From: Mobula birostris | Lineage: Eukaryota | NCBI RefSeq assembly: GCF_030028105.1 | Contig: NC_092381.1 | Coordinates: forward strand, 62,026,505 to 62,090,504 | Reading direction: 5' to 3' | DNA: 64,000 bases | Part shown: piece by piece, positions 11,001 to 64,000 of the stretch | Position numbering within the stretch: position 1 is the first letter of the stretch | Layout of the letters: each line of letters opens with the position of its first letter | The notes under the pieces: generated by a model | Seen by the model: only the letters and a program-made list of their open reading frames with translations | What the model was told of the DNA's origin: nothing | Database searches by the model: none | Program-made: the position numbers and the translations under genes

Positions 11001-14000
11001 AACTGTTTAGGATGCTGATTTCCATTTGTGACATCCATTCATCTGTTACGTGACTGGTAGCCATGACTTCGTTTCTGACAGAGGACTACACACAGGCAGA
11101 GAGAAAAAGAACAGGACTACTTAAAGATATGCCCAGAACTTTTCAAAGCTGTGAATCAATCCTGTTAATATGCTTTTTTAATCAGACTGTATAAAATTGC
11201 ATGGACAGCTTCCCTCATATATATAAAATAAAGATTATGTGCGGATTTTAGAGTTTCAATTTATCCAGACAAGGGAAAGATAATAAGCTTAATTTCACAT
11301 GTGAATACCTGAAGGGATTCCCTTTAAGAACTGACTTTAAAAATTGAAAAACCTAATGAAGGATCAGGGGTCACATTGCTGGATGCCAGAGAGGGAGGTA
11401 ACAAAGAGCAGCTCTAGGATCCCTGAGCCTGAGATCATCATTGAATACAGCAAGAATGCAGGAGGGATCAAACATATGTAGGTGATTTATTTTCACTTAG
11501 GAAAAACAAAAAAAAAATTTGATATCTGTCAACATATACACTTCACAAGATTTAGGTGTATAAAGATATTCTTGACAACCAGGTTTTAATTCAGCCCTGC
11601 TCTCCAAACCCCCTGCTGCCACTGGGTTTCCACACTATTGAATGGCTGAGGTATCACCTCGCACTCACTTCACCCTGCAGTTCAATTACTGATTGGATCA
11701 TTTTTATTTCTAGAGAGCACTTTCAACTGAAAGGTACTAGCGAAAAGTAATGGCTGAATTGAAGCACAAAACAAGAACTGCAACCACAACACACTGAATT
11801 GTATTTATTTTAAGTTTTGCTCCCAACTCTAGCTATTGATGCAACACATGAAGGGTTAATGATCACTCCACAAGTCCAGGGAATGTATGAGGCAAGATGC
11901 AAAATGGCTATTAATGCTACAACTAAAGTGAAAAAAATCCCAAGAATACATTTATGAAGGAGTATCTTGTACCAATTTGAAATAAATTTGATTAGAAATG
12001 CTGCTTCAGGACAGACAGATGCATTTTCTACAGTGGAACTATAATTATTTGAAAATCTGTCACTTGCTTCACAGACTTTGTAAAAGCACACTGTGTACAA
12101 CTGCGATCTGTCTGGTCACTTATTTATCTCCTATCTGAGAATAATAAAGCAATATTATTAACCACCCGCACTTCAGAATAAAGGATCCGATTTTGCATTA
12201 CTGCTCAGTGAACTAAGCATAATACTGTCTACAGAATATTATCTCTTCACCTTTGGCTCTGGAAAGAATTGCTGCACCACTTGCCTCTGAGTTCCAGAGC
12301 AGGACTTGTGCTGCTGTGAAATTTCTGCCCCAGTCAGCAAGAGAATGTTATGAGTAGGTGGTTATCTCCGCTTCTCTGCATCACAAAATATGTGAAGGGT
12401 TCAGTTCCTGAGATGCCCTCAGAGATTAAACCAAACTATTTGCAATCTTGACATCTTGTTTGATTGCAAACATGGTTTTCAAACCCCCAAGGCAACATTT
12501 CACCTTCAACAAGTTGCAAAATAAAGTTAAACACATTGATTAAAGTGACAGCACAAAACTTATAGAAATCAAATCTCACTTTGAGTCCTGGATTGGCGAT
12601 GAGGCGTGTGTTGTCACTCAGATAAGCTGTATAATGCTCCACCATTCGTTTGGTCTCTGCTTGACTGAGGTGCTCAAATGGAGATGAAAAGCTGCCTGCA
12701 GATAGCATGACAGTGGGGCTTTCTGCAAGAGACACAAGAATTAAATAAACTCCTCTTAATCATGCTCAGTACTTAATGGCAACTGTTGTTGGCGACGATG
12801 ATACAAACTTAAATCTAAGTTTTGTTTAAATATTTGAAACTCACACCTAATAGACATCGATCAAACTTATACTGAAGACAAAATGTCACACTAAGAATGG
12901 AAATGATGGATGTGAAACCTGTTGTAAAGAACTTTGCCCCCAAGTTTTCTCCTTTTCCCTTGCAAATTCTAGCTCATGTTGGGATAAGGACTCATGGGCA
13001 ATCCTTGGATACCTCACACTGTTGCATAGCTGGATTTGAAGGCCCACTGGTATTAGGAGTTAGACACCTACGATCCTCCTGTGAAAGTTGGCAACTCACA
13101 CTTCAAGATGATAAGGAAGCTGACAACAGGAACTTGGGTTCGAGCTGAAAAGGTTACAGTGGGAGCCTTTATTGAATATTCCTGGACCTGATTCTAATTC
13201 TGCAGAATATGGCCAAAGTATTGAAAGGCAGGGCTTTTATTTTAAAAAGAGTTGATTTATTCTTAAAACAGTGTAATTGTGTGCTATTAACACTTCAGTT
13301 TTAATTTGTAATTGCAATTACTTGTTACAGCATCAACAGAGCTGTTCAACTGCACAAAACCCAATAGAAGTCTTCTAGTTCCTGTTCTATGTGACTCTGT
13401 TCCAGACCATTCTCCTCTGGGAGCTGGAAGCACAACTGGAAAGCACTAAATACAAATGCTGCGGTTTAGGAAATGAGACAAATCCAGAAGTTAAATACTA
13501 CTGTGCTGGGAATCTGAAATCAATGCTGGAAAATCTCAACTTGTCAGGGAGTATCTGTGGATAGAGAAACAAGAGTCACTGACCAGGTCCCTTTGACCAA
13601 CTACTCTAGCACAGTAGTGTTTGGGAAGTTGGCTGGACTGGTGAGAAACAAGTACCATAAAAAAGACATGTATGTTTTATATTTAACAATCCAGTAAAAC
13701 AATCAAAATTGTTCAAAAGAAAAACAGCTGACGAAGACTCTACAATTTCCAGCTCTGCTATACCCAACATGCTAAACCAAAGACTCATATAATTTGACCT
13801 AAAACAGAATTCTTTCATCTATGCTTGAAGATTAACAAATATGTGTGAGAGGCACAAAATGAGTGATGTGTTTCCTGTGGTTTCAGCTTTTTGTTCATAC
13901 TTAAAATATGCATTCCAGTTCATTTTAAATCCTTTTAATTTTGAAAATAAACATCTACTTAAAGTAAAATTTAAAAATTAAAGTTATATTTTTATTGATC

Positions 14001-17000
14001 AACCAAATCAAAGGCCGCCGTATGAATTACACTGCTACATCCAGATTCCACCACCGACCCATTCACAGAGACACTAATTCCTTCAGATCCAGTTCAAGAG
14101 ACACCATGGGGCATCTTATCCTCCATCTTAAATTCTCCTGTCTTTCTAGGCAGTAAAAGTTACACACCAAAGCAATTCATAAAAATTAACATGCTGTCAA
14201 CTCCTTCCCACTAATTTCAGTGGATGGTGTTACAGCAGCAGCACACGTGTGATGTTCTAGCCTACTTCAATAATACACAACACTCTAGTGGTAGTTGCAC
14301 CAGACCTTTGGCACATAACCAATATACAGTAATATCAAGGTTAAATCTATGATCTTCAATAAATGAAATAAATGATTTCTTTACCAAAATTTGAACACTA
14401 TTCATCAATATATCAAATCTTGTAAAAAAAATTGAATAACTCCTCACCTCGATTTACAACAAACTTGCTAAGCTGCCTTTCTTGTGACTACAGTATACCA
14501 TTGCAACTCTTTCCCCGAATGTTCACTTCCACTTATGGAAAAGTGTGCTAGTTAACCTCGTTATTGGGGGCTCCTTTACCCATGCAATTAGGTAAAGTTG
14601 TTAATTTAAACTTATATCCTGTGATTAAGTATTCTTTACAAATTTGGCTCCAGTTCTGCAATTTTTTTAATCTTAAAAAATTTAAACTTTGTAGTTTAAT
14701 TTACCGAAATTACTTTTTTAAGCCTTCTTTGAGTGATCCAATTTTTCTACTTTGGAAAAAGGTATTAATTCTTTTTTGGATTTATTTAAACAAGATAGAT
14801 TGATGTCCTTTCAACAATTAATTGATAAATACTCTCTTTCATATTCACACTTTCTGCAATACCTTCAAGTTAGACATTTTTTACAAAAATATTTAAGTAA
14901 TTTCCCTTACATATTGGAGGCTGACCTGTTAGATACTATTATGAGTATGAATCCTTTGATTAAGGGTTCTATTGGAAGAATTTATAATTTATTATCACAA
15001 TGGGATGTGTTCTTTGTCTAAGATTAAACAGGATTGGGAAAAGGAACTTAATTTGACTTTTATGATGGAGGATTGGATGCGGATATTGAAGTTGGTTAAC
15101 TCTTCTTCAACCAACAGGAATTCTGCAGATGCTGGAAATTCAAGCAACACACATCAAAGTTGCTGGTGAATGCAGCAGGCCAGGCAGCATCTCTAGGAAG
15201 AGGTACAGTCGATGTTTCAGGCCGAGACCCTTCGTCAGGACTAACTGAAGGAAGAGTGAGTAAGGGATTTGAAAGTTGGAGGGGGAGCGGGAGATCCAAA
15301 ATGATAGGAGTAGACAGGAGGGGGAGGGACGGGAAGAAAGACGGGGGGGGGGGGCTCCAGAGAATGGGCAAGGGGTATATTCAGAGGGACAGAGGGAGAA
15401 AAAGGAGAGTGAGAGAAAGAATGTGTGTGTAAAAATAAGTAACAGATGGGGTACGAGGGGGAGGTGGGGCATTAGCGGAAGTTAGAGAAGTCGATGTTCA
15501 TGCCATCAGGTTGGAGGCTACCTAGACGGAATATAAGGTGTTGTTCCTCCAACTTGAGTGTGGCTTCACCTTTACAGTAGAGGAGGCCGTGGATAGACAT
15601 GTCAGAATGGGAATGGGATGTGGAATTAAAATGTGTGGCCACTGGGAGATCCTGCTTTCTCTGGCGGACAGAGAGTAGGTGTTCAGCAAAGCTGTCTCCC
15701 AGTCTGCGTCGGGTCTCGCCAATATATAAAAGGCCACATCGGGAGCACCGGACGCAGTATATCACCCCAGCTGGCTCACAGGTGAAGTGTTGCCTCACCT
15801 GGAAGGACTGTTTGGGACCCTGAATGGTGGTAAGGGAGGAAGTGTAAGGGCATGTGTAGCACTTGTTCCGCTTACACGGATAAGTGCCAGGAGGGAGATC
15901 AGTGGGGAGGGATGGGGGGGACGAATGGACAAGGGAGTTGCGTAGGGAGCAATCCCTGCGGAATGCAGAGAGGTGGGGAGGAAGGATGTGCTTAGTGGTG
16001 GGATCCCGTTGGAGTCTCCGGGTCCAACATATTACCTCACCTACCACCCCACCAGCCTCCGGGTCCAACATATTATTCTCCGTAACTTCCGCCACCTCCA
16101 ACGGGATCCCACCACTAAGCACATCTTTCCCTCCCCCCCCCCCTGCATTCCACAGGGATCGCTCCCTACACAACTCCCTTGTCCATTCGTCCCCCCCATC
16201 CCTCCCCACTGATCTCCCTCCTGGCACTTATCCGTGTAAGCGGAACAAGTGCTACACATGCCCTTACACTTCCTCCCTCACCACCATTCGGGGCCCCAAA
16301 CAGTCCTTCCAGGTGAGGCAACACTTCACCTGTGAGTCGGCTGGGGTGATATACTGCGTCCGGTGCTCCCAATGTGGCCTTTTATATATTGGCGAGACCC
16401 GATGCAGACTGGGAGACCGCTTTGCTGAACACCTATGCTCTGTCCACCAGAGAAAGCAGGATCTCCCAGTGGCCACACATTTTAATTCCACATTCCATTC
16501 CCATTCTGACATGTCTATCCACGGCCTCCTCTACTGTAAAGATGAAGCCACACTCAGGTTGGAGGAACAACACCTTATATTCCGTCTAGGTAGCCTCCAA
16601 CCTGATGGCATGAACATCGACTTCTCTAACTTCCGCTAATGCCCCACCTCCCCCTCGTACCCCATCTGTTACTTATTTTTACACACACATTCTTTCTCTC
16701 ACTCTCCTTTTTCTCCCTCTGTCCCTCTGAATATACCCCTTGCCCATCCTCTGGGTCCTCCCCCCCCCCCCCCGTCTTTCTTCCCGGACCTCCTGTCCCA
16801 TGATCCTCTCGTATCCTTTTTGCCTATCACCTGTCCAGCTCTTGGCTCCATCTCTCCCCCTCCTGTCTTCTCCTATCATTTTGGATCTCCCCCTCTCCCT
16901 CCAACTTTCAAATCCCTTACTCACTCTTCCTTCAGTTAGTCCTGACGAAGGGTCTCGGCCTGAAAAGTTGACTGCACCTCTTCCTAGAGATGCTGCCTGG

Positions 17001-20000
17001 CCTGCTGCGTTCACCAGCAACTTTTATGTGTGTAACTCTTCTTCAATTTGTGCTAGCCATTCATTGATTCAATTTAAAATTGTACATCATTATCATTTGA
17101 CAAAGGAGAGACTTTCTAAAATCTTTCCTAATGTTGATAGTCATTGTGATAGATGTAAAACAGAGATAGCTACACTGACACATGTTTTGGTCTGTTCTAT
17201 ATTGGAACAGTTCTGGAACTCTGTTTTCTCAACAATTTCTAAAGCACTTAAAATTAATTTACAACCTAATAAATTAACTGTGCTTTTTGGAATAATTCCT
17301 CAAAATATTCATGGTATTTCTGTGTCTGACCAACATGTTATTGCATTTGTTACATTGATAGCTAGGAGGGCCTTTGTTACATTGATAGCTAGGAGGGCCA
17401 TTTTGTTGAAGTGGAAGGATACATCAGCTCCCACTTTGTTACAATGGTTCTCTCAAGTGATGCTATGTCTTAGTTTGGAGAAAATTAGAAGTCGAACCTT
17501 TGAACCTTTATTTGATTTTGAGAAAAGATGGGGCTCATTTGCTCGTTATTATCATTTGAGTTAATTGATATAATTTTTCCACGATCTAATTGTAAGTTCT
17601 TTTAGTATATTTTCTTTTCTTGCTGGCGGTTTGATGTTTATTTTTAGAAGCTTTTTGTATGACGCATGGCTCCGGGGTTGTACACCTAATGGGTTCTCTT
17701 CTTTCCTCTCTCACTTTTCTGCTTAGTAGGTTTTTTTTGTTATCACAAAATTTTGTTTTCGATCATTAAGATGATGGTTTTTTTTGAGGCACTGTTAAGT
17801 GTTGTTACTTCGATGTACTCATGTTATTTTTCCTATATATACAATAAAAAGATTTGAAAAGAAAAGGAAAAGTGTGCTAGTATTGGCTACTCTTTTGTCC
17901 CTCCATTGTAAAGATAGCTATGGATTCTTTCTTGCATTCAGTATAATCACTAGCAGGCAAATGTCATTGTTCTACAATAATTTGCAGAAGCATGCAACAG
18001 ATTGCCAAAGAACAATTGAGAAACTGAGAAATAGATAATTCACATCTATGCCACAAACTTGTTAAGAGTTAGCGAAATAGATGCTATAAAAGCCAAGTTA
18101 AAACTTTATCAACCATGAAGAAATAAAGGTACATGACTGCAATCTTATGATAAAGTGGCGTCAATTTGCAAATCAGTATTCAATGAAACCTCCTTGTTCA
18201 GTTGAGTATTAATACAGCATTCGATAAGAGCTGGATAGTCTAATCCTTTGTTCCTTTTCTTGCTTATAGTACAAGTTGGAGTATATTGGAAAGATCATCT
18301 GTGAAAGTTAATTATTCCTTACATAAATAGAAAGAAAATTGACAAAGGGAGTTCAGGTTATCAAGATTCTTCACTGCATGGCTTGTACTCACTTCAAAAT
18401 AAGACTGATGGAGATCTGTGGTATCTAATGTAGTTGGCTTCTTGGTGACTTTGGGTGCACATGTGAGTGTGGAAAGCGAAGGAAATTGCAAATGGAAGAG
18501 CAATATGGAATATTAGAGGCTGCAAACCCTCAACACATTGCTTCATAGTTAGCTTCTTACCTAGTGTTGCCAACTGCTTGAAATGCAAACAGGAGGTAGG
18601 TTGACCCAGAAGATCCAACCGATGGTAGAGAAGCTTACTACTTGGGGCAGTATTTAAATTTTTCAGGTGTCTGACTGGCACTTCAGGTTGGACCATCACA
18701 ATGCACAGAATAAATGATGTGTCTTGCACCTGCATAGGTAAAGGAGTATCAGAATTTTTATAACCAACTTTAAATGTCAGTTCAAATTTCCAGCGACTTT
18801 CTACAAAACTGGTAGAAAGATTTCACTGAACTATCAAGTTCAAGTTTATTGTCATCTGACTGTACCTTTGTACAACCAAACGAACCAAAGTTCCTTTGGA
18901 CCATGATACTCCCACAAAACATATCACACACAGCACATAAACCAAAATAGTACCATAAATAAGTTAATAAAATCTAATTCAAAATATATATAGTGCACAG
19001 CACAGATTAACAGTAAATTGCTGGTTGTCCTAGTGGCAGGACCTTGATGGTGGCAGGGTATTCATTAGCCTCACTGCTCAAGACTAATGGTTTCCATCTC
19101 TGCAATGACCTCAATGACTGAACATAGTATTGTTTTCAGTAATACAGTTAAAAGGGCAGGATTGAGGGGTACAAAATTAGTCAGTGGACAGCAGAATTAA
19201 ATCAAAATGGGGCCAAATTTTTGAGGTCACATCAGTTACACATGTGGAAGCTAAGAAGCAAGAGCTCTAGTTTTGAAACACCACCCAAGCGTAATGCACA
19301 CAAAATGTTGGAGGAACTTAGCAGGTTAGGCAGCATCTCGGGAAATGAATGAACAGTGGAGATGTCAGGCTGAGGCCCTTCTTCAGGACTGAAAGGAAAG
19401 GGGAAGATGTCAGAATAAATGGGTGGGTGGAGGGAAAGGTGGATTAGCTAGAATGTGATAGATGAAGCCTAGTGGCTGGAGAAGAAGAAATCTGATGACA
19501 GAGGACAGTGGACCATGAGAGAAAGGGAAGGAGAAGGAGGGGCACGGGGGAAGGTGATAGGCAGGTAAGTAGAAAAGATAAGAGGCTAGAGTGGGGAATT
19601 GAAGAGTGAAGAGAAAGGGAGAAAAATTACCGTAAGTTGGAGAAATCCATTTTCATGTTATCAGGTTGGAAACTACCTAGACGGAATATGAGGTGTTGCC
19701 CCTCCACCCTGAGAGTGGCAAAAGTAGCAGCCATGGATTGACACATCGGAATGGGATAGGGATAGGAATTAAAATGGCTGGCCACCGGAAATTTCATTTT
19801 TGGCTGATGGAGTGGATGTGCTCAACAAAGTGGTCCCCTAATTCATGCTGGGTCTCACCAGTGTAGAGGAAGCCACAACAGGAGATACAAATGACAAAAC
19901 CAATAGATTCCCAGGTGAGGTGTTGTCTCACCTGGAAGGAATGTTTGGGGCCCTGAATGGCGGTGAGAGAGGAGGTGAATGGGCAGGTGTAGCACTTCTG

Positions 20001-23000
20001 CCACTTGCAGGGGTATGTGTCAGGATGGAGATGAGTTGGGGAGGGATGAATGGACAAGGGAGTTACGGAGGGAGTGATCTCTGTGGAAAGCGGAGGAGGG
20101 GGAAGGGGAGGTAAAGATGCGTTGGATGTGGAGGCTCATGGGGTGGTAGGTGAGGATAAGCAGAACTCTATCCCTGTTAAGGTGGGGGGAAGATGGGATA
20201 AGGGTGAACGTCCAGGAAATGGAAGAAAAGTGGGTGAGGGCAGCATCAATGGTGGATGAAACAGAACACTATTCTTTGAAGGAAGAGGACATCTCTGCTG
20301 TCCTGGAAAATAAATCCTCAGCCTGGGAACAGATACGGCAGAGACAAAGGAACTGAGAAAAGGGAACAGTATTTTTATAGGAGACAGGATGGAAGAGGTG
20401 TACTCAAGATAGCCATGGGAATTGGCCGGTTTATAAAGATATTGGTAGACTGCTTGTCTCCAGAAACGGAGACAAAGAGATCAAGAAAAGGGAGAGAAGG
20501 GTCAGAAGTTAACCAAGTGAAATTAGGGGCAGGGTTAAAGTTGGAGGCAAAGTTCATGAAATTGACGAGTTTATCATAGGTGCATGAAGCAGCACCAATG
20601 TAGTCATCAAAGTAGTGCAGGAAGAGTTAGGGAGGCTTGGAACATGGACTATTCTACATAGTTGGGGCCCATGCAGGTGTGCATGGCTACCTTGAGTTTG
20701 GAAAAAGTAGGAAGAGCCGAAAGAGAAATCGTTTAGCGTGATTTCTGCCAGACCGAGGGTGGTGGTGGTGGAGCGGGGGAACTGGTTAGGGCTTTTGTTG
20801 AGAAAAAGCAGGCAGCTTTAAGGCCTTTTTGGTGGGGGAATAGAAGAATATAGGTACTGGACATCCATGGTGAAAATGGGAACTGAAAGTTGTTGATGAG
20901 ATCAAGAGCATGTGAAGTGTTGCAGATATAGGTGGGAAGGGACATAACCAAGGAAGATAGGGGCATCCAAGAATGCCCATGAGTGAGGATGAAACAGAAT
21001 TCAGAGAATAGTTCACACCACCCACTTCCTTTCCCCAGAGAAGTCTGTGTTAGTAGAAGCACAGAAGCACCTCAACTCGGCCTTGCCCCTGCGCTTTGTA
21101 AGAACCACGTAATCTTGAAAGTAACACTGAGCAAAAATAAATGGACCTGCTCACATTGACACTATTTATATTCAAGAGGCACATCTTAAAATGTCCTGGC
21201 TTTTGCAGTACTCTCGAGTTCCCAGCATTTGGAGCTTTGATTTGACTAAAATATCTTACAAGCAAGCACAAGCAAATCTGTTTCCGCACAATGGACTGCA
21301 GAAGGTTTCTACAGTGGAATGAGAGAAATACGTGCAGCATTGGATCACACAGGCAGGCAAGTTATCACCCTGCCAATGAACGGGAACGGCGACTAATGGT
21401 GGCCCTGGAACTTGTGCTTCTGCTGCCCTTGGGAATCTGATGCCATTAACTGAAAATGGACAGATCAACCAGCTCTGGCGCATCAGGAAGCAGCTGTTTA
21501 CCTTTCACAATCAGACTCCTGGAGACAACAGTCGTATGATAAGTAAAATCAGAAGACGAGAAGGATTGCTGCTGCCTGAACTTCTACATTGCAAATGCTT
21601 CAGAGAAGGAACCCTGCTTCAAGGATTTTTAAATCCTAAAAATAACTCACCAAATGCAATCAGCCTTTCATTCATCAGCATTCCCAATTTTAAAAATGTT
21701 TAACTCCGATTAAATCTAATTCAAATATTCAAATACTTAGTGGTCAGCCATTAATGAGGTAAATAAATTGAGCACTTGTGAAAAGCATCCTTGATTAAAA
21801 ACATTCTTCTGGTTTAAAAAACACAATCCTATACATCTTAACAGATCAAAGGAAAACAAAATTTAATGGCATACTTGGAATAACACAACCTACCAACTTC
21901 CAGGCATAGCTGACATTGTAGGCGTCCTTACTGGTTTCTCGCAGCCGATTTATATGCCAAGATAAAGAGGAATTTACGGGTACAGTAATAACTTGACTGC
22001 CCAAGGGGAGACTGCACAGAGATGAAGGAAGAAAAACATTATTTGCATGTCTATAATTTACACTGCCACAAATTCTAACTTTCAAAACACGTCTGGCAAA
22101 GTTTACAATGATGAAATGTACCCTGGACAATTTAAAGACAATGAACAGGACTACTGGGAACACTTATTTTTGCTCACAATACTTAATCAAAGAACACTAA
22201 CCTGAAGTGTTAAACACTTCTTTCCATACATTTGAGCAATTTCAACATTTTCTTTTTTAAAATTCAGATTTCCAGAATCTGCTGGAATTGCTCAAATTTT
22301 TGCTTTTATTCAAGGTTGTTGCTTGAAGGTAAAAAAATAATCCTTGTTGAATGGAAATCCAATGCTTCATTCAAGCGATTAAATCGTCAGGCAAGAAGGA
22401 CCCAACAACTTCTGCTGACTCATTACTATAGGGATTCAAGTTCATGTTCAAGTTTAATTTTCATTCAACCATACATGAAAATCGCCAAACGAAACCACGT
22501 TCCTCCAGGACAAAGGTGCAAACTGCACACAGCACATAAGGTTACGATAGCAGAAAGTATAGTCACAAAAAAAATATACAGTCACCCAAGCCTCTGAATA
22601 GCATGGCCTGTAGAACAGACAATTTCGAATGAGGTTCGAGGCGACATCGGATGCATAGCAACTCTGGCAGGGTTTGCAAGACATTACTTCCTACAAAGCG
22701 AAACCCGATAGCACGAATGGCAGCAATGCTTCATTACCAGATGAACTCAGCACCTTCTATGCCCACTTTGAAAGGGAGAACACAACTACAGCTGTGAAGA
22801 TCCCTGCTGCACCTGATGACCCTGTGATCTCCGTCTCAGAGGCCGATGTTAGGCTGTCTTTAAAGAGAGTGAACCCTTGAAAGGTGGAAGGTCTCGATGG
22901 AGTACCTGGTAAGGCTCTGAAAACCTGTGCCGACCAACTAGCGAGAGTAGTCAAGGACATTTTCAACCTCTCACTGCTACGGGCGGAAGCTCCCACTTGC

Positions 23001-26000: not shown

Positions 26001-29000
26001 TGCAGGTTCCAGCAGTATAGATACATTTTGGGAACGGGGCCCTGGATAACCAGAACTCCTCCGCAACTTGCATGAGGCCAGACTGAGTGCTGTCCAGTTG
26101 CTCATGGAATACCTCACATTCAAACTCAGTATTGCCTTATCTAATGACCAAGCACATGCCCATTTCACTCTTTGCTCAGTGGTAACGTCCTCAGAGTTAA
26201 GGTGTTCACAAATTACTCCAAAAACATCAGCACATAATGCAAGCTTACATTTAAAGGCAGCACTGAGAAGCTGCTACACTGTTGTTGGAGATGCCATCTC
26301 TCAGAAGAATTATCAACAAAAGACCCCAATACACTGAAAGGGGAATATATTAATAAAATCCAGTAGTATTCACAATTGTTCTGGGCCACATTTATCTAAC
26401 AGCTAATATTGCAAGAGCTTACCCAGTTACATATCACTGTGTTGATTCCAGAGACAACTTAACCCGTCTATTTCCCGATGCAACAGTACCCATAAAAATT
26501 GCCATGAACTACCTTGGAACATCTTAAAAAATTTTGAAAAAAGGTTTTTTTTTTAAAATGCTGGATTTTTTCCCCCTTTCTCATGGAATCTGAGCCTTGA
26601 TTGACTTTACCTCCTCACATAGTTGAACACTTCCGTTAAGTTCAGTAAAACACAGATGAGTTTCAATATAGATACTTTTCAACCTCATAATTCATTGCTG
26701 GTTCATTTGACATACAGTAGCCATGAATTTTTAAACAGACCTTGTGGAAGATGCATACATTGCTGCATTGATAATGCAACGGCCATTTGCCAACGAAATG
26801 AAAGAGGTACACCATTTTTGATAGGGATGCTAATAAGAAACAAGGGAATATTGGGAAGAGAAAACACAGAAAACTTCAAAAGGAAAGACCAAACCTACCA
26901 TCACCCATTTCATCCGTGTATGGTAGACTAAACACAGCTTCATCTATCATTCGGTTTGGCAGGTTTGTGTAAAACCGTCCTACAGTGGTCTCCAAGTTAC
27001 TCAACTGGTTCAATACCATCATTGTTCCTTTTACAACAGGGAGCGACGTGCGATCAGGAACTCCGTATTTTGCTGAATTCTGTTCTGCTAAATCTCGAAG
27101 AAAGGCAAGCTCCTTCAAACCAGTTATGCCCTCTAAAATAAAACAAATAATATTAAAGCTGGAAATAGTTGTGTTACTGACAAAACAAATGAGATTCTGC
27201 TCTATTTAATGCATATTTGACAGGAAAGCAAAATGGAAAAGTATTTTGAAAACCCTCTACTATACTACCATAGCTCCCCCCCCCCCCACTGCTAAAGTCT
27301 GTGTGTTTTGCATTCTCTTGCAAGGCATTCAGAGGATCCTCAAAAACAGGCCAATGTACTAGAGATGTACCCATTCTTTTTTTTTAATCACCACCTTATC
27401 ATCTTATACATGTCATCTCTGGTAGTAGAGTGAAATAATGCTTAAGATGCTAACACAAGAAAATCTGCAGATGCTGAAAATCCAATGCAACACACAAAAT
27501 GCTGGAGAAACTCAGCAGGCCAGGCAGCATCCCTGTTAAAAGAGTAAACAGTTGACATTTCAGGCTGAGACCCTTCTGCAGATATGCCGTTAATTCTCAA
27601 AAGTTCATTCACTCAAGTTAATAATGATAGCCGATAAATTGATATGGCAACTAATTCTTTCATAATTTTAATTACTCCACATACCCACTCTACCTCCGAA
27701 TTCTTTGATCAATCATATGTATCATTGCTTTGAACATTTCCAAATCATTTAACATGATCAGACAATATCCTTCAAACAAGTTACCAGCGGAAGCACTCTA
27801 TCATGCTGTTATGAAACCTGTCCAATTTGCTTTCAAATTGCTCTGTGGTATAGATGATAGTACAAACTTTGACATTTTCTTCAACACTAGGATCTCCCTG
27901 CCAATTCAATAATCTCCATCATTATTCAAAGACCATAAGATATAGGAGCCGAATTAGGCCATTTGGCCCATCGAGTCTGCTCCACCATTTCATCATGGCT
28001 GACCCAATTTTCCTCCCAGCCCCAATCTCCTGCCTTCTCCCCGTATCCCTTCAAGCCCTGACCAATCAAGAATCTAACTACTTTATCCATTCTTCTGATA
28101 GATATTCAATTCGAGCATAGTACACACTGGAGTGGCTGTTCAGCCCATGATGCCATGCTGATCTTGATGCCAATTTACACTAAATGTCCTCCTCCTGTGT
28201 ATCATCGATATCCTCTATTCCCTTCAATACGTGTATGTCTATCTACAAGCTTTTTAAACTGCCGGCTTCCACTACCACCCCTGGTAACTCATTCCAGGCA
28301 TCTACTACTCTTTGAGTGACAAAACGTGCCCTCCATGTTGCTTCTAAACTTCCCACTCCAACCTTAAAAGCATGTCCTTCTCTCTGAGAAAAAGAATCTG
28401 ACCATCTATGCCTCTATCAGATCTACCCTCATCCTCTAATGCTTTAGGCAGAACCATTCAAGTTTGTCTAATCTTTCCTTATAGCTCTAATCCAGACAGC
28501 ATCTTGTTAATCCTCGTTCGTGCCCTTTCCAGTCTCCATACCATTCCTAAAATGGGACAACCAGACCTGCACGCACTACTCTCCAGGTAGTCTGACTAAA
28601 GTTGCACATAGCTCCAGCGTAACTTCCTTACTCATACTCAACCCCATCAATGAAGGCAAACGTGCCATACACCTTCTTTACCACCTTATCTACTTGCACA
28701 GCCACTTCTAGTGAACTATGACCCTAGACCCTAAGATACCCTTGTACCTCAATATTATTGAGAGGTCTACTATTAATATTCGACTTCACTAAGTGCAACA
28801 CCTCACACTTGCACAGATTAAACTCCTGTGCCTATATCTGTAACTGATCCACATCCCGCTGAGTTCTTTGATAGCCTTTTACTCTGTCCACAATATACTA
28901 ATCATGGTGTCATCCACACTCTTGTTAAACTACTCAGCTACATTTTTCATCCAAATCCTTGATAAATGGCGTTGCCCCATATACCTTAGGTCAACCACTT

Positions 29001-44000: not shown

Positions 44001-47000
44001 CAACATACCAGATGGCTGTTATTTTCCCTTTTGGTGAAAGGAACCCTTAGGAGGCAATGATCATAATATGACTGAATCCATACTGCAATTTGAGAGGGAG
44101 AAACACAACTCACATGTATCAGTATTGCAATGGAATAAATGGAATTACAGAGCTACGAGAGAGGAGCTTGTCCAGGTGGATTAGAGGAAGAAACTGGTGG
44201 GGATGACAGTAGAGCAGAGTTGGCTGAAGTTTCTGGGAATAGTTCACAAGGCGCAGGTTAGGTACGTCCCACAGAAGTAGTTGTTCTCAAAAGGCAGGAG
44301 TAAGCAACTGTGGCTGACACAGGAAGGTAAGGACTGCATAAAAGCCCAGGAAAGGGCATATAAAGTCGCAAAGGTGAGTGCCAAATTGGATGAATGGGAA
44401 GCTTATAAAACCCAACAAAAGGCAATGAGAAAAGCTATAAGAATGGAAGAGATGAAATATGAGGGCAGACTAGCCAATAATATAAAGCAGGATACCAAAA
44501 GTTTTTTCAGTTATATAAAGAGTAAAAGGGAGGTGAGATTTGATATTGGATCACTGGAAAATGATGCTGGCTGTCGAGGTAGCAATAGGGGATAAAGAAA
44601 TGGCAGATTAACTTAATGGGTACTTTGCACCTGTCTTCACTGTGGAAGACACTAGCAGCATGCCAGAGCTCTGTGAGTGTCAAGGAACAGGAGTGGGAGC
44701 CATTGCTATTATAAAGGAAAAAGTGCACAGCAAACTCAAAGGTCTTAAGGTGGATAAGTCACCTGGAGCAGATGGACTACATCCCAGAGTCCCAAAAGAG
44801 GTTGCTGAAGTGATAACGGATGCATTGGTCATTCTCTTTCAAGATTCACTTATCTGGCATGGTCCCAGAGGACTGGAAGATGGCAAATGTCACTCCAGTC
44901 TTTCAGAAGGGGCAGGGGGGGAGGGTGGAAGGCAAAAGAAAGGAAATTACGGATCAGTTAGCCCAACCTCAGTGATTGGGAGTGTTGGAATCTATCATTA
45001 AGGATGAGGTTTCGGGGTACTTGGAGACTAATGATAAAACAAGTCAGTCAGCATGGTTTCTGTAAAAGGAAATCTTGCTTGACAAATCTGTTAGAATTCT
45101 TTGAGGAAGTAACAAGCAGGGTGGACAAAGGAAAGCCAGTGGATGTCATTTACTTGGATTTTCAGAAAGCTTTTGATAAGGTGCCACACATGAGGCTGCT
45201 CAACAAGATAAAATTCTATGGCAATATTGGAAAGATACTGGCATGGATAGCAGAATGGCTGACAGGTAGGAGGCAGTGAGTGGGAATAAAGGGGGCCTTT
45301 TCTGATTGGCTGTCGGTGACTAGTAGTGTTCCTCAGGGATCAGAGTTGTGACCGTTACTTTTTCACATTGTGAAATGATTGTCAATGATTTAGATAACGG
45401 AATTGATGGCTTTGTGGCAATGTTTGCAGATGGTATGAAGATAGGTGGAGGGATAAGTAGTGCTGAGGAAGCAATGCGATTGCTTTAGACAAATTAGAAA
45501 AATGGGCAAAAAAGTGGTCGATGGAATATACTGTTGGGAAATGTATGATGATGCATTTTGGTGAAATATAACAATAATACAGACTATTATCTAAATGGGA
45601 GAGAAGGTTCAAACATCAGAGGTGCAAAGGGACTTGGGAGTCCTTGCGCAAGACTCCCAGAAGGTTAATTTACAGATTGAGTCTGTGTTAAAGGCAGCAA
45701 ATGCAGTGTTGCTATTTATTTCAAGGGGAATAGAATATAAAAGGAAGGAGATAATGCTGAGCCTCTATAAGACACTAGTCAGGACAGCACTTGGAGAGTA
45801 TTGTGAACAGTTTTGGGCCTCATATATCAGAAAGGATGTGTTGTCATTGGAGAGAGTCCAGAGGAAGTTCACGATGATGATTCTGGGAGTGAAGGGTTTA
45901 ACATACAAGGAACATTTGGGAGCTTTGAGCCTGTACTCACTGGAATTTAGAAGAATGCCAGGTGATCTCAGTGAAACCTACTGAATGTTGAAAATACTAG
46001 GTGAATGTGGATAAGATGTTTCCTGTGGTGTGGGTATTCAGAACTAGTGGGTACAGCCTCAAAATTGAGGGACAACCCTTTTGAACAGCGGTAAGGAAGA
46101 ATTTTTTTAGCCAGAGAATGGTAAATCTGTGGAATGCTCTGCCACAGACTGCAGTGGAGGCCAAGACCGTGGGTATATTGAAGGTGGAAGTTGATAGTTT
46201 CCTGATCGATCAGGGCATCAAAGGATATGGCGAGAAGGCAGGTGGTATAGGGTTGAGTGGGATCTGGGATCAGCCATGATGGAATGGCGGAGCAGACTTG
46301 ATGGGCTGAATGGCCTAATTCTGCTCCTATGTCTTACGGTCTAAATATCTCAAGTGCACACTATTAGCAGAAGATTAATAAAAAGTTAAGAAAATAATTT
46401 TCCCCAAAGGTTTAGTGAAGTTGGATAACAAGTGCAATAAAATCTTTGTGGCACTGCATGTGTTGCTCTGGTTTTCCAGCATCTGCAGAATCTGTTTTGC
46501 TTACAACTTTGAACTTGCAGTTTCTGTTTTTAAATTAGTTTTAAACTTACTGCTGCATTTAATGATTAACTTTGTGTTCATGTTGATATACTTTCAGTGA
46601 TGAACCTACTTCACTCTTGATCAGTTGACGCGGGCAAAGTAGCTCTTTGAAAGGAAACTGCTGCAACTCCATAAAATATGACTTTGACTAATTGTCCATC
46701 GGGAGGTGAGAATAACCTCGCACTCCATTTCGTGCAACAACTGCAGTTCACCAAAGATACCCATATTTAATCTCCAAGACCTGCTAAAGCTATCCATGCA
46801 GGAATTACATCTAAACAATTACACTAGCTAGATATATGCCTACATATGACCACTTGACAAGTGCCATCAATTGGAACCTTTAACACCGTACAATAAACTC
46901 TGATTTCACTGCAATGCAGAATGCCTTCTTTGCAGCTCCTGATTACCTGAGACAGGGAGTGAATAAAAACAAATCACTGACAAGGCTTCTGGTGCCTTGA

Positions 47001-49768: not shown

Positions 49769-51249
49769 CTGTCAGAGGAACACAAAGGCACAACAAAAGA
49801 TGAGATCATGGATGAGCATTGCTATGAGTTTACAATCACTTGCATCTTAAAATTCTTCTAAACCCATCCTGAAGTACATCATCAGCAGATGAATATCTTC
49901 CCAGCATCAATCAAATCAACAGCAGTGTATCTTCCAATATATGTTGGGCCAATACTCTCCATAAAATATTCACAGGAATTTGCTATTTGTCATACCCTCT
50001 GTACATCTATTTAAAATATAGCACAAACAGTCTTAAGTGGTTTTGGGTAAACTGTTTTGTTTAGCACTAGTCTCCAAGTAGAAATTAGCCTCAAATTAAT
50101 TTTTGGAGGATGTTTCCAAACAGCGATGAGTAGACAGATCAAGCACAGATTTACAGTTCACTGCATAGTTGAGAACTTGAACCTGTATCTCGAGATAAGA
50201 CCTCCGCTATGTAACTGATGAACAAAAAATGCCAGACTGATGCTGCACAACCAACCATTACGATAAAGAATCTACCAGTTAATCCAATGATACATAATAC
50301 AGATTTAGTTATGCAAACTGAAAATTCAGTCTTTACTTACACGAGGAGTATCAAAAATGGCCCACTGCTCGTTTTGGCAATTAGATGGCAACTTTTCAAT
50401 TACACAAGTTTGCAATCAAGTCATCACAGCAACACATAAAAAATCTTTGCCTAGTGCAAGAATGTAAACACTGACATCTCATTATTTCAAAAACGGGCTG
50501 CATTTTATTTTTCAAGACATAACAACGTACAAACCCTCTGCCCTTGCAGAGTAAACGAAGGCAGATGAGAAGGAGGCAAGAAAAACAAGAAGAAAATCAG
50601 CCAAGCTTGCTGCTTCTGATTATAGTGTAGAAAATTTTTCTGCTCAAGATGTAGGTGGATACAGATGGATCAGGCCCAGCTGCAGGCTTTCAAGTACTCC
50701 ACTGACACACCACAGCATGAAGAATTACATTTTACACTATATGTAAAATAAACGGAGCACAGAAATGTATGACAGGACACAGCACCTTCAAGTGAAGAGT
50801 CGAAATATGTATTGAAAATACACTATTTTTAAAAGCTAAAATGGCGACAGTCTGAAAAGAACAAAATGCTGTGCACAGAGTATTCAGAATGTAACATCAA
50901 AGCACAAATTAATTTATCTGTGCCTGTATTTGCATTACTAATACAAATAGTTCAAATATGGATATTTAATAAACCGCATACAAGTTTTACTAAGTCTGTC
51001 TCATCTGCAATTGTTACCAGTGATTAAGGCATGAAATTACATGCTTTGAATAGAGCAACCTAAAAATTAATCTGTGGGTCCTCTTTGATCAAGAAAAAGA
51101 CTACAAATTTTCACAATGTCTAATTTTGTTTTTCATCTGTTTGCAAACAATGAAGGAAACCTAACTAAACTGTGGATCCTTCAAAGTGTTAGCAGATTTA
51201 GCATATTGTCGCCACTATACCAGAGGGGGAAACATACTTAAGAAAGTCT

Positions 51250-52815
51250 GATTTGAATTGGATCAGACTGCTCTACAAAGACATCCGTAGTGCAGTCCAG
51301 GTCAACGGGTGGGAAACAGACAGCTTCCCCATCAGGTCTGGAGTCAGGCAGGGCTGTCCCCTCTCCCCTGTCTTGTTTGTCTGTTGCATAGAACCCTTTG
51401 CCGAAGCCAACAGGAGGGATGAGGGCATAAGAAGGGTGACGCTGCCAGGCAGTGGAGGGACCCAAGTAAAAACCTCCCTGTACATGGACGACGTCACCGT
51501 CTTCTGCTCTGATCCGAGATCAGTTCGCAGGTTGATTGGCACCTGCGAACAGTTCGAGCTAGCGTCGGGGGCCAGGGTCAACCGCTCTTCGGCAACTGGC
51601 CCGACCGATCCAGCATCCCCTTCACCATCAGGTCTGACCACGTGAAGGTGTTGGGGATCTGGTTCGAAGGGGCTGAGGCGTGCAACAAGAACTGGCAGGA
51701 GCGGACTGCCAAGGTGAAACAGAAACTGGGACTGTGGGGAGGGCGCTCCCTGTCGATAACGGGCAAGAACCTGATCATCAGGTGTGAGGTGCTCTCAGGG
51801 CTGCTGTACTTGGCGCAGGTCTGGCCCGTCCCCCGCTCCTACAGCTCGAAAATCACCCGGGCTGTCTTCAGATTCGTCTGGGGATCCAAGATGGAGCGGG
51901 TGAGACGGACCGTCATGCACAAGTCCCTGGACAACGGGGGCAAGAACGTCCCCAATGTCGCCCTCACCCTGATGGTCAGCTTCGTATGTGGCTGCATCAG
52001 GTTGTGTGTAGAGCCCAGGTATGTGGGCACCAAGTACCACTATGTGCCCAGGTTCTACTTGTCGCCCTGGCTACGAAGGATGGGTCTGGCCCCACTCCCG
52101 CGCAACGCCCCAGTCAGCTGGTCATTGCCGGCATACCTGTCCCACGTAGCAAAGTTCTTCCAGGAGAACGCCTTTGACCACAGGGCCATCAGGCAGTGGT
52201 CGGCACGAAGTGTCCTGCAGGCACTGCAGGAGAAGGACGTGATGGACACAGTGGGGTGGTTCCCTGAGCAGACTGTCCAGTTCATCTGGCAAAATGCCTC
52301 ATCGCCAGATCTCACCAACAGGCACCAAGACCTCGCCTGGCTGGCGGTGAGAGGGGCCCTCCCAGTCAGAGCCCTCCTGTACGCCCAGAATGTCGTCCCC
52401 ACACCTCACTGCCCACGGGAGGACCGCAGTGAGGAGGAGTCTGTGACCCACCTCTTTGCACACTGCCAGTTCGCAAAGAGGGTGTGGAGGAGGATGGACG
52501 GGCTAGTGTCACGTTTTATCCCCAGCAGCTGCGTAACAGAGGACTCTCTGATCTACGGGCTGTTCCCGGGGACGCACACGGAGACCAACATCCGGTGCTG
52601 CTGGCAGATCATCAACTCGGTGAAAGACGCTCTTTGGTCAGCCCGAAACTTGATGATCTACCAGCACATGGAGATGTCCGTGGGAGAATGCTGCCGACTG
52701 GCACACTCTCGGCTGTAGGAGTACGTGCTGAGGGACGCACTGAAAAGTTATTGAATGGTTTATTGTATATATTTATTTTTGAATAAAGTATATTTTGAAA
52801 TATATAAAAAAAAAT
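51250..52815 (+). mobile_element. Tx1-clade (L1 group) non-LTR retrotransposon, 5'-truncated, GC-rich
   Basis: WIRLLY, SGVRQGCPLSP, LYMDDV, CP..ESVTHLFAHC; AATAAA and A-tail. Confidence 0.88.
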
Positions 52816-53738: not shown

Positions 53739-56700
53739 TATAACCATATAACAATTACAGCACGGAAACAGGCCATCTTGGCCCTTCTAGTCCATGCCGA
53801 ACTCTTACTCTCACCTAGTCCCACCGACCTGCACTCAGCCCATAACCCTCCATTCCATTCCTGTCCATATACCTATCCAATTTAACTTTAAATGACAACG
53901 TAGAACCTGCCTCAACCACTTCTCCTGGAAGCTCGTTCCACACAGCTACCACTCTCTGAGTAAAGAAGTTCCACCTCATGTTACCACTAAACTTTTGCCC
54001 TTTAACTCTTAACTCATGTCCTCTTGTTTGAATCTCCCCTACTCGCAATGGAAAAAGCCTGTCCACATCAACTCTATCTATCCCCCTCATAATTTTAAAT
54101 ACCTCTATCAAGTCCCCCGTCAACCTTCTATGCTCCAAAGAATAAAGACCTTTCTCTGTAAACAACAGGAATTCTGCAGATGCTGGAAATTCAAGCAACA
54201 CACATCAAAGTTGAGGGTCTCGGCCTGAAACGTCGACTGCTCCTCTTCCTACAGATGCTGCCTGGCCTGCTGCGTTCACCAGCAACTTTGATGTGTGTTA
54301 CCTTTCTCTGTAACTTAGGCGATGAAACCCAGGTAACATTCTAGTAAATCTTCTCTGTACTCTCTCTATTTTGTTAACATCTTTCCTGTAATTTGGTGAC
54401 CAGAACTGTACACAATACTCCAAATTTGGCCTCACCAATGCCTTGTACAATTTCAACATTACATCCCAACTCCTATACTCAATGCTGTGATTTATAAAGG
54501 CCAGCATACCAAAAGCCTTCTTCACCACCCTATTCACATAAGATTCCACCTTCAGGGAACTATGCACCATTATTCCTAGATCCCTCTGTTCTACTGCATT
54601 CCTCAATGCCCTACCATTTACCATGTATGTCCTATTTTGATTAGTCCTACCAAAATGTAGCACCTCACATTTATCAGCATTAAACTCCATCTGCCATCTT
54701 TCAGCCCACTCTTCTAACTGGCCTAAATCTCTCTGCAAGCTTTGAAAACCTACTTCATTATCCACAATGCCGCCTATCTTAGAATCACCTGCACACTTAT
54801 TAATCCAATTTACCACCCATTCATCCAAATCATTAATGTATATGACAAACAACACTGGACCCAGTACAGATCCCTGAGGCACACCACTAGTCACTGGCCT
54901 CCAATATGACAAAAAGCTATCCACCACTAATCCCTGACGTCTCCCATCCAGCCACTGCTGAACCCATTTTACTACTTCAATATTAATACCTAACAAATGA
55001 ATCTTCCTAACTAACCTTCCGTGTGGAACCTTGTCAAAGGCCTTACTGAAGTTCATATAGACAACGTCCACCACTTTACCCTCGTCAACTTTCCTAGTAA
55101 CCTCTTCAAAAAATTCAATAAGATTTGTCAAACATGACCTTCCACACACAAATCCATGTTGACTGTTCCTAATCAGACCCTGTCTACCCAGATAATTATA
55201 TATACCATCTCTAAGAATACTTTCCATCAATTTACCCACCACTGATGTCAAACTTACTGGCCAATAATTGCTAGGTTTACTCTTAGAACCCTTTTTAAAC
55301 AATGGAACCACAGGAGCAATACGCCAATCCTCCAGCACTATCCCCATTTCTAATGACATTTGAAATATTTCTGTCAGAGCCCCTGCTATTTCTATACTAA
55401 CTACCCTCAAGGTCCTAGGGAATATCCTGTCAGGATCCGGAGACTTATCCACTTTTATATTCCTTAAAAGCGCCAGTACTTCCTCTTCTATAATCCTCAT
55501 AGTTTCCAATAACTACCCTATTTGTTTCCCTTACCTTACACAATTCAATATCCTTCTCCTTAGTGAATACTGTACTGAAGAAAAGAAATTGTTCAGAATC
55601 TCCCCCATCTCTTTTGGCTCCACACATAGCTGTCCATTCTGATTCTCTAAGGGACCAATTTTATCCCTCACTATCCTTTTTCTACTAATATAACTGTAGA
55701 AACCCTTTGGATTTATTTTCACTTACTTACCAAAGCAACCTCATATCTTCTTTTAGCTTTTCTAACTTCTTTCTTAAGATTCTTTTTAAATTCTTTATAT
55801 TTCTCCAGTTCCTCATTTACTCCACACTGCCTATATTTATTGTAGATATCTCTCTTTTTCCAAACCAAGTTTCCAATATCCCTTGAAAACTATGGCTCTC
55901 GCAAACTTTTAACCTTTCCTTTCAACCTAACAGGAACATAAAGATTCTGTACCCTCAAAATTTCACCTTTAAGTGACCTCCATTTCTCGATGACATCCTT
56001 CCCATAAAACAAATTGTCCCAATCCACTCCTTCTAAATCCTTTCACATCTCCTCAAAGTTAGCATTTCTCTGATCAAAAATCTCAACCCTGGGTCCAGAC
56101 CTATCCTTCTCCATAATTATATTGAAACTAATGGCATTGTGATCACTGGACCCGAAGTGCTCCCCAACACAAACCTCCGTCACCTGACCTATCTCATTCC
56201 CTAACAAGAGATCCAACACTACTCCTTCTCCAGTTGGTACCTCTATGTATTGCTACAAAAAACTATCCTGCACACATTTTACAAACTCCAAACCATCCAG
56301 CCCTTATACAGTATGGGCTTCCCAGTCTATGTGTGGAAAATTAAAATCTCTCACAATCACAACCTTGTGCTTACTACAAATATCTGCTATCTCCTTACAA
56401 ATTTGCTCCTCCAATTTTCACTCCCCATTTGGTGGTCTATAATACACCCCTATAAGTGTTACTACACCTTTCCCATTCCTCAATTCCACCCAAATAGCCT
56501 CCCTAGACGAGCCCTCTAATCTATCCTGCCAGAGCACCACTATAATATTTTCTCTGACAAGCAATGCAACACCTTCCCCTTTTGTCCCACCAATTCTATC
56601 ACACCTGAAGCAATGAAATCCAGGAATATTTAGTTGCCAATCACACTTCTCTTGTAACCATGTTTCACTGATAGCTACCACATCATACTTCCAGGTATCA

Positions 56701-63000: not shown

Positions 63001-64000
63001 GGGAAGTTTGGCCAGGTGGATTCAGAATTGGCTTGCCTGCAGAAGGCAGAGGGTTGTGGTGGAGGGAGTACATTCAGATTGGAGGATTGTGACTAGTGGT
63101 GTCCCACAAGGATCTGTTCTGGGACCTCTACTTTTCGTGATTTTTATTATCGACCTGGATGTGGGGGTAGAAGGGTGGGTTGGCAAGTTTGCAGACGACA
63201 CAAAGGTTGGTGGTGTTGTACATAGTGTAGAGGATTGTCAAAGATTGCAGAGAGACATTGATAGGATGCAGAAGTGGCAGATGGAATTCAACCCAGAGAA
63301 GTGTGAGGTGGTACACTTTGGAAGGACAAACTCCAAGGCAGAGTACAAAGTAAATGGCAGGATACTTGGTAGTGTGGAGGAGCAGAGGGATCTGGGGGTA
63401 CATGTCCACACATCCCTGAAAGTTGCCTCACAGGTGGATAGGGTAGTTAAGAAAGTCATGGGGTGTTAGCTTTCATAAGTCGAGGGATAGAGTTTAAGAG
63501 TTGCGATGTAATGATGCAGCTCTATAAAACTCTGGTTAGGCCACACTTGGAGTACTGTGTCCAGTTCTGGTCGCCTCACTATAGGAAGGGTGTGGAAGCA
63601 TTGGAAAGGGTACAGAGGAGATTTACCAGGATGCTGCCTGGTTTAGAGAGTATGCATTATGATCAGAGATTAAGGGAGCTAGGGCTTTACTCTTTGAAGA
63701 GAAGGAGATTGAGAGGAGACATGATAGAGGTGTATAAGATAATAAGAGGAATAGATAGAGTGGATAGCCAGCGCCTCTTCCCCAGGGCACCACTGCTCAA
63801 TACAAGAGGGCATGGCTTTAAGGTAAGGGGTGGGAAGTTCAAGGGGGGTATTAGATGAAGGTTTTTTACTCAGAGAGTGGTTGGTGCGTGGAATGCACTT
63901 CCTGAGTCAGTGGTGGAGGCAGATACACTAGAGAAGTTTAAGAGATTACTAGACAGGTATATAGAGGAAATTAAGGTGGGGGGGTTATATGGGAGGCAGG
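60050..64000 (+). mobile_element. Near-full-length CR1 LINE (second subfamily), runs off window
   Basis: ORF1 from ATG 60155 (CLSC..ICQNC, IGNSIVRG, IGTND, DGLHL) with in-frame stops; ORF2 [30 protein letters not shown]. Confidence 0.95.

What the first reader, a model, noticed from the sequence alone, without database searches (positions are those of the whole stretch)
15097..17046. 1.9-kb fold-back Penelope insertion: a near-perfect ~900-bp hairpin nested in an L1 inside CACHD1 intron 13
Seen: arms at about 15145-16014 and 16099-17032 are reverse complements, so both strands give 251-aa ORFs with the same start and a GIY-YIG end. One 14-bp TSD brackets the whole structure, so it is a single insertion event. 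Only the left arm has an extra ~35-nt terminal tail. Established: PLEs carry a short 3' tail and often gain an inverted second copy at the 5' end. Inference: the CACHD1 pre-mRNA can fold into a long dsRNA here (ADAR or Dicer substrate), and the DNA may extrude a cruciform.
Basis: partly seen in the sequence, partly recalled or inferred. Interest (0 to 1): 0.7.

Follow-up and report, generated by a model that had tools for sequence, protein, structure and literature searches.

The report
Ordinary head-to-head Penelope retrotransposon insertion
This 1.9-kb hairpin in an intron of a shark- or ray-type CACHD1 gene is real, but it is the usual back-to-back footprint of a Penelope-like jumping gene, repeated at dozens of sampled sites in the same genome; its RNA is predicted to fold into a long duplex, with no sign that this serves the host.

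Summary
The structure is real. Two 5'-truncated, head-to-head copies of a Neptune-type Penelope-like element (PLE) sit inside one 14-bp TSD, in an L1-clade LINE in CACHD1 intron 13. Corrections: the arms are 96.3% alike, with a 64-nt bulge and an 81-nt loop, and the twin 251-aa ORFs are a geometric by-product. This layout is described in print (PMC8557442, PMC3846280) and is routine for the family: in 122 loci, 58 of 60 head-to-head pairs have one tail and 56 of those 58 have a TSD. The scan found it before on other DNA, in this and other genomes. The useful by-product is mechanistic. Neither arm is nested in the other, and both ends show primer-like microhomology. Partner arms share rare variants (13 vs 0.9 expected) yet disagree at 13-18% of subfamily sites. 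This favours priming from both target nicks on related but not always identical RNA copies. A long dsRNA is predicted and editing is plausible (lizard Penelope is heavily edited, PMC5625713), but I had no usable RNA data and found no sign of selection on pairing. A cruciform is unlikely with this spacer.

The parts
15097..15110 (.). Left copy of the 14-bp target-site duplication
   Evidence: single copy in 9 of 9 uninterrupted LINE relatives
15111..15147 (-). PLE 'tail' (36-37 nt), on the left arm only; in tandem copies it runs on into the 5' end of the ORF
15148..16014 (-). Left (tailed) arm: 5'-truncated PLE 3' end with Zn-finger linker, GIY-YIG (RF-motif Arg changed to Ser), 3' UTR with a 64-nt deletion
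15211..15238 (-). Minimal hammerhead-like motif of the left arm; helix III changed (GAAA-CATC vs family GAAA-CGTC), predicted inactive
   Evidence: 137 of 186 arms keep CGTC; motif recognised by eye from PMC4209133, not found by Rfam
16015..16034 (+). 20-nt junction filler, a templated copy of 16056-16075 (19 of 20)
   Evidence: (D9)
16035..17032 (+). Right (tail-less) arm: 5'-truncated PLE 3' end; 16035-16095 is unpaired, 16096-17032 pairs with the left arm; GIY-YIG frame ends at 16639
   Evidence: (GIY-YIG E=6e-4, below cut-off)
16942..16969 (+). Minimal hammerhead-like motif of the right arm; helix III changed (GAAA-AGTT), predicted inactive and antisense to CACHD1
17033..17046 (.). Right copy of the 14-bp target-site duplication
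14553..17865 (+). Host 5'-truncated L1-clade LINE (ORF2 C-terminus with zf-RVT, 3' UTR, A-rich end), split by the PLE; own 16-bp TSD at 14537-14552 and 17866-17881
12724..18560 (-). CACHD1 intron 13 (between the exon from 18729 to about 18560, donor not pinned, and the exon at 12723-12580)

Best explanation
This is one dead insertion of a Neptune-type Penelope-like element, made of two 5'-truncated head-to-head arms inside one 14-bp duplication, likely formed when the element's enzyme primed DNA synthesis from both nicked target strands. Steps. (1) Staggered nicks 14 nt apart in an L1-clade LINE: the TSD is shown, the nicking is inferred. (2) One 3' end primes at the RNA's tail site and the other about 37 nt upstream: the one-tail geometry is shown, the priming is inferred from it and from in-vitro work on an anole PLE. 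(3) Both cDNAs stop early (904 and 998 nt; shown). (4) The two cDNA ends are joined by microhomology or templated end-joining: the 20-nt filler is shown, the pathway is inferred. (5) The arms then mutate independently, with no sign of selection on pairing (shown statistically for the family). The templates likely came from one source locus but not always from the same repeat copy. In the CACHD1 pre-mRNA the arms are predicted to pair over about 840 bp and may be edited by ADAR as a bystander; no host function is indicated.
For: Family-wide (122 loci from four searches): 60 head-to-head pairs, 58 with exactly one tail, 56 of 58 with a TSD (36 of 56 are 13-14 bp), against 0 of 300 mismatched-flank controls. 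The tail-less arm reaches further 5' in 36 of 58 pairs, the tailed arm in 16, and 6 are within 10 nt. In the 36, including this locus, neither arm can be a copy of the other. Overlap between element end and TSD averages 1.5 nt at tailed ends (47 of 57 scorable) and 1.6 nt at tail-less ends (53 of 57), against 0.36-0.37 +/- 0.09. Junctions: 24 overlaps, 4 blunt, 30 with filler. In 48 of the 58 pairs, partner arms share 88 non-majority variants (null 32 +/- 5) and 13 rare ones (null 0.9 +/- 1.0; five of the 13 fall in two tight clusters). This locus's arms share one rare variant and agree at 6 of 8 polymorphic sites. PAc protein cuts and extends both strands, starts at two sites bounding the tail, and is modelled as a dimer (PMC11167929, main text read). 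A tandem relative has a 1042-aa RT + GIY-YIG frame with CX4CX2C and CCHH-type motifs.
Against: No intermediate was observed; the mechanism is read from genomic fossils. [quoted passage not shown] Shared rare variants could also come from later arm-to-arm conversion, though divergence is flat with distance from the junction (2.35, 2.36, 1.92, 2.21%). The loci are top hits of biased queries, so proportions are not genome-wide rates. Pfam scores for RT and GIY-YIG are below the curated cut-offs.
Confidence: 0.72

Rival explanations
1. Fold-back (self-priming): one cDNA, or an antisense template as proposed for Adineta PLEs, snaps back and copies itself; endonuclease resolution leaves the tail on one side.
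For: Proposed in PMC3846280 (Discussion passage) and, for the tail, in PMC8557442. Partner arms share variants. Six of 58 pairs start within 10 nt of each other, and some have palindromic centres. This locus has GGAG-T-CTCC at the left junction.
Against: In 36 of 58 pairs, including this one, each arm holds sequence the other lacks. Partner arms disagree at 52 of 296 polymorphic-site comparisons, or 21 of 159 after dropping three suspect sites, against a background of 0.3-1.5% per site.
Confidence: 0.13
2. Two separate insertions: a second PLE copy landed at the 5' end of a first one.
For: The arms differ by 3.7% plus a 64-nt deletion, and at two polymorphic sites.
Against: There is one TSD around both arms and no second one inside. 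The same geometry recurs in 56 of 58 pairs. The arms share a variant carried by only 3 of 200 aligned arms.
Confidence: 0.03
3. The hairpin has a host function: it regulates CACHD1 splicing or level, or yields small RNAs.
For: Predicted duplex of 844 inter-arm pairs, -1828 kcal/mol, longest helix 197 bp. Penelope is a massively edited repeat in lizard (PMC5625713 passage).
Against: Of 32 substitutions, 12 leave G-U pairs on the transcribed strand and 13 on the other. Paired arms deviate from the family majority as much as other copies (1.21% vs 1.10%). Such hairpins are common in this genome. There is no A-to-G excess in either arm.
Confidence: 0.07
4. Assembly artefact from fold-back chimeric reads.
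For: No contig of four public runs bridges the central junction; these runs may be other species or individuals, so this carries little weight.
Against: The arms differ at 32 sites and 4 indels, which a read artefact would not give. The TSD restores an intact LINE. The same architecture with distinct TSDs recurs in 56 pairs.
Confidence: 0.02

Closest known systems
Complex insertions of EN+ Penelope-like elements: inverted 5'-truncated copy plus 30-40-bp tail at one end (Craig et al. 2021, PMC8557442, passages and Fig. 2 legend; Arkhipova et al. 2013, PMC3846280, first fifth of the text and passages)
   Same: Head-to-head inverted copy, one tail, one TSD around the whole unit, strong 5' truncation.
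   Different: Here both copies are truncated stumps of about 0.9-1.0 kb with no RT, so the whole insert is a hairpin; TSD 14 bp (family mode 13-14) against 8-10 bp in the Adineta examples.
Neptune clade of PLEs (PMC8557442 passages)
   Same: C-terminal GIY-YIG, CX2-5CxxC linker finger (CKRNKCYTC), CCHH-type motif, hammerhead-like motif in the pLTR.
   Different: No RT tree was built, so Neptune versus Nematis rests on motifs.
PAc (Poseidon, Anolis) in-vitro system (Frangieh et al. 2024, PMC11167929; main text and start of Methods read)
   Same: Two reverse-transcription start sites bounding the tail; both strands cut and extended.
   Different: Another clade; the paper does not address how inverted arms are joined or whether they share a template.
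L1 twin priming (recalled, no call; a search for it with PLE terms gave two unrelated listings)
   Same: Both target nicks prime cDNA, giving a 5' inversion inside one TSD.
   Different: L1 inversions copy non-overlapping parts of one RNA; here the arms copy the same region, which needs two repeat copies, two RNAs or re-use of one.
Inverted-repeat ADAR substrates (Porath et al. 2017, PMC5625713 passages)
   Same: Long near-perfect intramolecular duplex from a repeat in a pre-mRNA; Penelope is named there as heavily edited in lizard.
   Different: No editing data for this locus or species were available.

Membership tests
EN+ Penelope-like element | Single ORF with RT and C-terminal GIY-YIG endonuclease | tested here: met
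   Relative L183 has a 1042-aa frame with RVT_1 (E=0.003) and GIY-YIG (E=0.001), both below Pfam cut-offs; L067 RVT_1 E=3e-6. This insertion keeps only the EN end.
EN+ Penelope-like element | Partial tandems forming pLTRs | tested here: met
   L182 and L183 carry an upstream partial copy running through the tail into the ORF.
EN+ Penelope-like element | Inverted 5'-truncated copy with 30-40-bp tail on one end, inside one TSD | tested here: met
   This locus; 58 of 60 pairs one-tailed, 56 of 58 with TSD.
EN+ Penelope-like element | Minimal hammerhead motif in the pLTR | tested here: inconclusive
   Core CUGANGA...GAAA-CGUC in 137 of 186 arms, matching the description in PMC4209133; Rfam gives no hammerhead hit; both arms here are mutated; cleavage not testable.
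Neptune clade | CX2-5CxxC finger between RT and EN plus CCHH motif, EN C-terminal | tested here: met
   CKRNKCYTC and C-x2-C...H...H in both arms and in L183; criteria from PMC8557442.
Neptune clade | RT phylogeny grouping with Neptune | not tested
   No named reference set of PLE RTs was fetched.
L1-clade LINE (host) | APE endonuclease + RT + C-terminal zinc motif, A-rich end, TSD | tested here: met
   L191: Exo_endo_phos E=4e-10, RVT_1 E=9e-15, zf-RVT E=2e-5; TSD and A-rich end. L1 versus Tx1 not resolved.
ADAR/Dicer substrate | Editing clusters or small RNAs in the arms in vivo | not testable with these tools
   Only contigs, no run on record as RNA; multi-copy mapping prevents locus assignment.
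Cruciform-forming palindrome | Near-perfect centre with a spacer of about 10 bp or less | tested here: not met
   81-nt spacer, 96.3% identity; breakage falls 80% by a 9-bp spacer (PMC8053094), and a 52-bp spacer did not stall eukaryotic forks (PMC7999016).

The most novel reading that the evidence does not exclude
Inverted PLE insertions record double priming in which the two arms are reverse-transcribed from two different repeat copies (two RNAs on a dimeric enzyme, or the two tandem copies of one transcript), usually from the same source locus. About a quarter to a third of informative comparisons behave as independent templates, so thousands of such hairpins make the unsolved second half of PLE integration readable from genomes.
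Probability: 0.45. Interest if true: 0.5.

Novelty: new member of a known kind. Interest (0 to 1): 0.22.

Why it matters
As a locus it matters little: it is one of many dead hairpin-shaped PLE insertions. As a family it offers two things. The paired arms are natural records that separate models of PLE integration (fold-back versus priming at both nicks, one template versus two), a step that PMC11167929 leaves unvalidated. The element also deposits long intramolecular duplexes in single events, a predicted load on dsRNA editing in cartilaginous fish, in line with the heavy editing of lizard Penelope.

Tried and rejected
(1) Read support for the junction: contigs of X1, X2, X9, X11 and X1, X2, X10, X15 do not bridge 16015-16034; these may be other species or individuals and records are filtered, so this is uninformative. 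No RNA holder listed. (2) Rfam: no hammerhead at E<=5 in 14000-21000 or E<=10 in L183:5300-5520; the plant-miRNA hits are far below gathering scores and reflect the hairpin alone. (3) ADAR scar written into DNA (lead from e1-9141068): left arm 1 A>G and 2 T>C, right arm 1 and 1; family rates 4.8 vs 4.0 per 1000; rejected here. (4) Twin 251-aa proteins: rejected as symmetry by-products. (5) A subfamily carrying the 64-nt deletion: a search with the left arm's deleted region returned mostly undeleted copies; it looks private, though only 40 of 2250 candidates were scored. (6) Centre-focused conversion: no gradient. (7) A two-class mixture of same-template and different-template pairs: 24 pairs with no discordance vs 21.5 expected under independent sites (P=0.28); not supported. 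One site (aligned index 786) is unlinked to four others and may be a recurrent hot spot; index 936 is biased by my query. (8) The pLTR-tail RNA folds no better than shuffles (z=-0.77). (9) Literature searches for a published test of arm template identity or PLE twin priming listed none; the library lacks most subscription journals, and I read no supplements.
Full report
Observation. A 14-bp duplication lies at 15097-15110 and 17033-17046 and nowhere else on the + strand of the window. It is a true target duplication: 9 of 9 relatives of the host LINE run through the site with a single copy, and public run X1 holds the joint 15096->17033. The paired arms are 15148-16014 and 16096-17032, with 834 matches, 32 substitutions (96.3%) and indels of 1, 1, 6 and 64 nt, around an 81-nt centre. 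The left arm alone has a 36-37-nt tail. The centre is 61 nt of extra element sequence belonging to the right arm plus a 20-nt filler copied from 16056-16075. The arms' differences rule out a fold-back read artefact; I could not get spanning reads.

Setting. The exon at 12723-12580 matches CACHD1 and is identical to shark and chimaera proteins, so the genome (4.0 Gb) is likely a cartilaginous fish. A shark CACHD1 protein gives 27 exon matches on the contig, 13 of them upstream of the insert: intron 13, minus strand. The host is a 5'-truncated LINE on + at 14553-17865 with its own 16-bp TSD; a relative encodes APE, RT and zf-RVT.

The element. Longer relatives carry RT. L183 has an upstream partial copy running through the tail into a 1042-aa frame with RT and C-terminal GIY-YIG (Pfam scores below cut-off). 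The linker CKRNKCYTC and the CCHH-type residues fit Neptune as defined in PMC8557442 (passages); no tree was built. The two 251-aa ORFs are stop-to-stop frames whose first 70-85 residues are mostly antisense of the other arm and spacer. Equal length is forced by symmetry, there is no RT, and the left copy has lost the Arg of the RF motif (its catalytic role is recalled, not tested). A minimal hammerhead-like core is intact in 137 of 186 arms but altered in both arms here (criteria from PMC4209133 passages; no Rfam hit).

How ordinary it is. Four own-genome searches (521-2956 first-look candidates each, 40 scored each) gave 122 distinct loci, 58 of them read at 10 kb. They contain 60 head-to-head pairs, by-catch and this locus included; 58 have exactly one tail and 56 of those a TSD, mostly 13-14 bp, against 0 of 300 controls. 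The main hit is paired in 49 of 122 loci. A miniature with the same layout lies in this window at 54148-54313. [quoted passage not shown] Earlier notes of this scan report the same on other DNA.

Mechanism. The tail-less arm reaches further 5' in 36 of 58 pairs, the tailed arm in 16; which class is larger depends on my queries, but both exist. In the first class, this locus included, each arm has sequence the other lacks, so neither was copied from the other. Both outer ends overlap the target by about 1.5 nt against 0.36 expected (47 and 53 of 57 ends scorable), as primed ends would, though T-rich target choice could contribute. Junctions show overlaps (24), blunt joins (4) or fillers (30), as end-joining would leave (inference). 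This fits PMC11167929, where an anole PLE protein cuts and extends both strands and starts at two sites bounding the tail.

One template or two. In 48 of the 58 pairs (both arms long and close enough to align), partners differ at 2.42% of 19,253 non-CpG sites against 3.01 +/- 0.09% for shuffled partners, and share 88 non-majority variants against 32 +/- 5 and 13 rare ones against 0.9 +/- 1.0 (a first pass on 32 pairs agreed). So partners are usually related by source. Yet they agree at only 244 of 296 comparisons at nine polymorphic sites (chance 179), or 138 of 159 (chance 89) after dropping three suspect sites, while the background change rate is 0.3-1.5%. Seven pairs scored at sites outside their query give 35 of 40 (chance 24). 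The discordance is not concentrated in a subset of pairs (P=0.28), and the two tandem copies of L183 differ at four of seven such sites. Two repeat copies of one source, two RNAs, template switching, hot spots or later conversion could each contribute; I cannot separate them. This locus agrees at 6 of 8 sites and shares one rare variant.

Function. The minus-strand RNA is predicted to form 844 inter-arm pairs with a longest helix of 197 bp. Editing is plausible, since Penelope is a heavily edited repeat in lizard (PMC5625713 passage), but untested: no run is on record as RNA. Against a host role: G-U-preserving changes do not favour the transcribed strand (12 vs 13), paired arms drift like unpaired copies (1.21% vs 1.10%), and there is no A-to-G scar. 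A cruciform is unlikely: breakage drops 80% by a 9-bp spacer (PMC8053094 passages) and a 52-bp spacer did not stall eukaryotic forks (PMC7999016 passages); here the spacer is 81 nt.

Verdict. A real but ordinary member of a described insertion type; interest 0.22. The one lead worth keeping is family-level: partner arms as a readout of how many templates a PLE insertion uses. Searches listed no paper testing that, within a library that lacks most subscription journals; I read no supplements, and of 10.64898/2026.07.22.740005 only a term search.

Noticed in passing
window 54148-54313: Miniature of the same structure: 14-bp TSD (54148 and 54300), tailed arm of about 54 nt, tail-less arm of about 86 nt.
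   Followed up: yes
window 27458-27581, 19297-19390, 19626-20119, 46459-46496: Older, 72-87% similar PLE ends and a GIY-YIG-bearing fragment of related families.
   Followed up: no
window 16820 region (aligned index 786) and about 16988 (index 948): Two polymorphic sites where one allele perfects a local inverted repeat (GCCAA...TTGGC; CAGATGCTG with the tail's CAGCATCTG). Index 786 is unlinked to four other subfamily sites and often discordant between partner arms, as a quasi-palindrome hot spot would be (interpretation by eye).
   Followed up: partly
L183:4594-8983 (G000:C5:205757480-205767479): Partial tandem with a 1042-aa uninterrupted RT + GIY-YIG frame (RT motif reads YIND); its two copies differ at 21 of 707 sites.
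   Followed up: partly
unpaired copies among the 122 loci: 42 of 73 unpaired main hits had no TSD by my search, against 2 of 58 paired ones; tailed and tail-less singles both occur with TSDs (19 and 12).
   Followed up: no
window 17343-17396: 27-bp tandem duplication inside the host LINE's ORF2 end (D4).
   Followed up: no
window 54326-57710 and 60270-63644: Two oppositely oriented CR1-like LINE copies, 68-70% alike (CR1 label recalled from the ORF motifs).
   Followed up: no
window 51202-52718: GC-rich LINE fragment with a 401-aa frame, Tx1-like by eye (label recalled).
   Followed up: no
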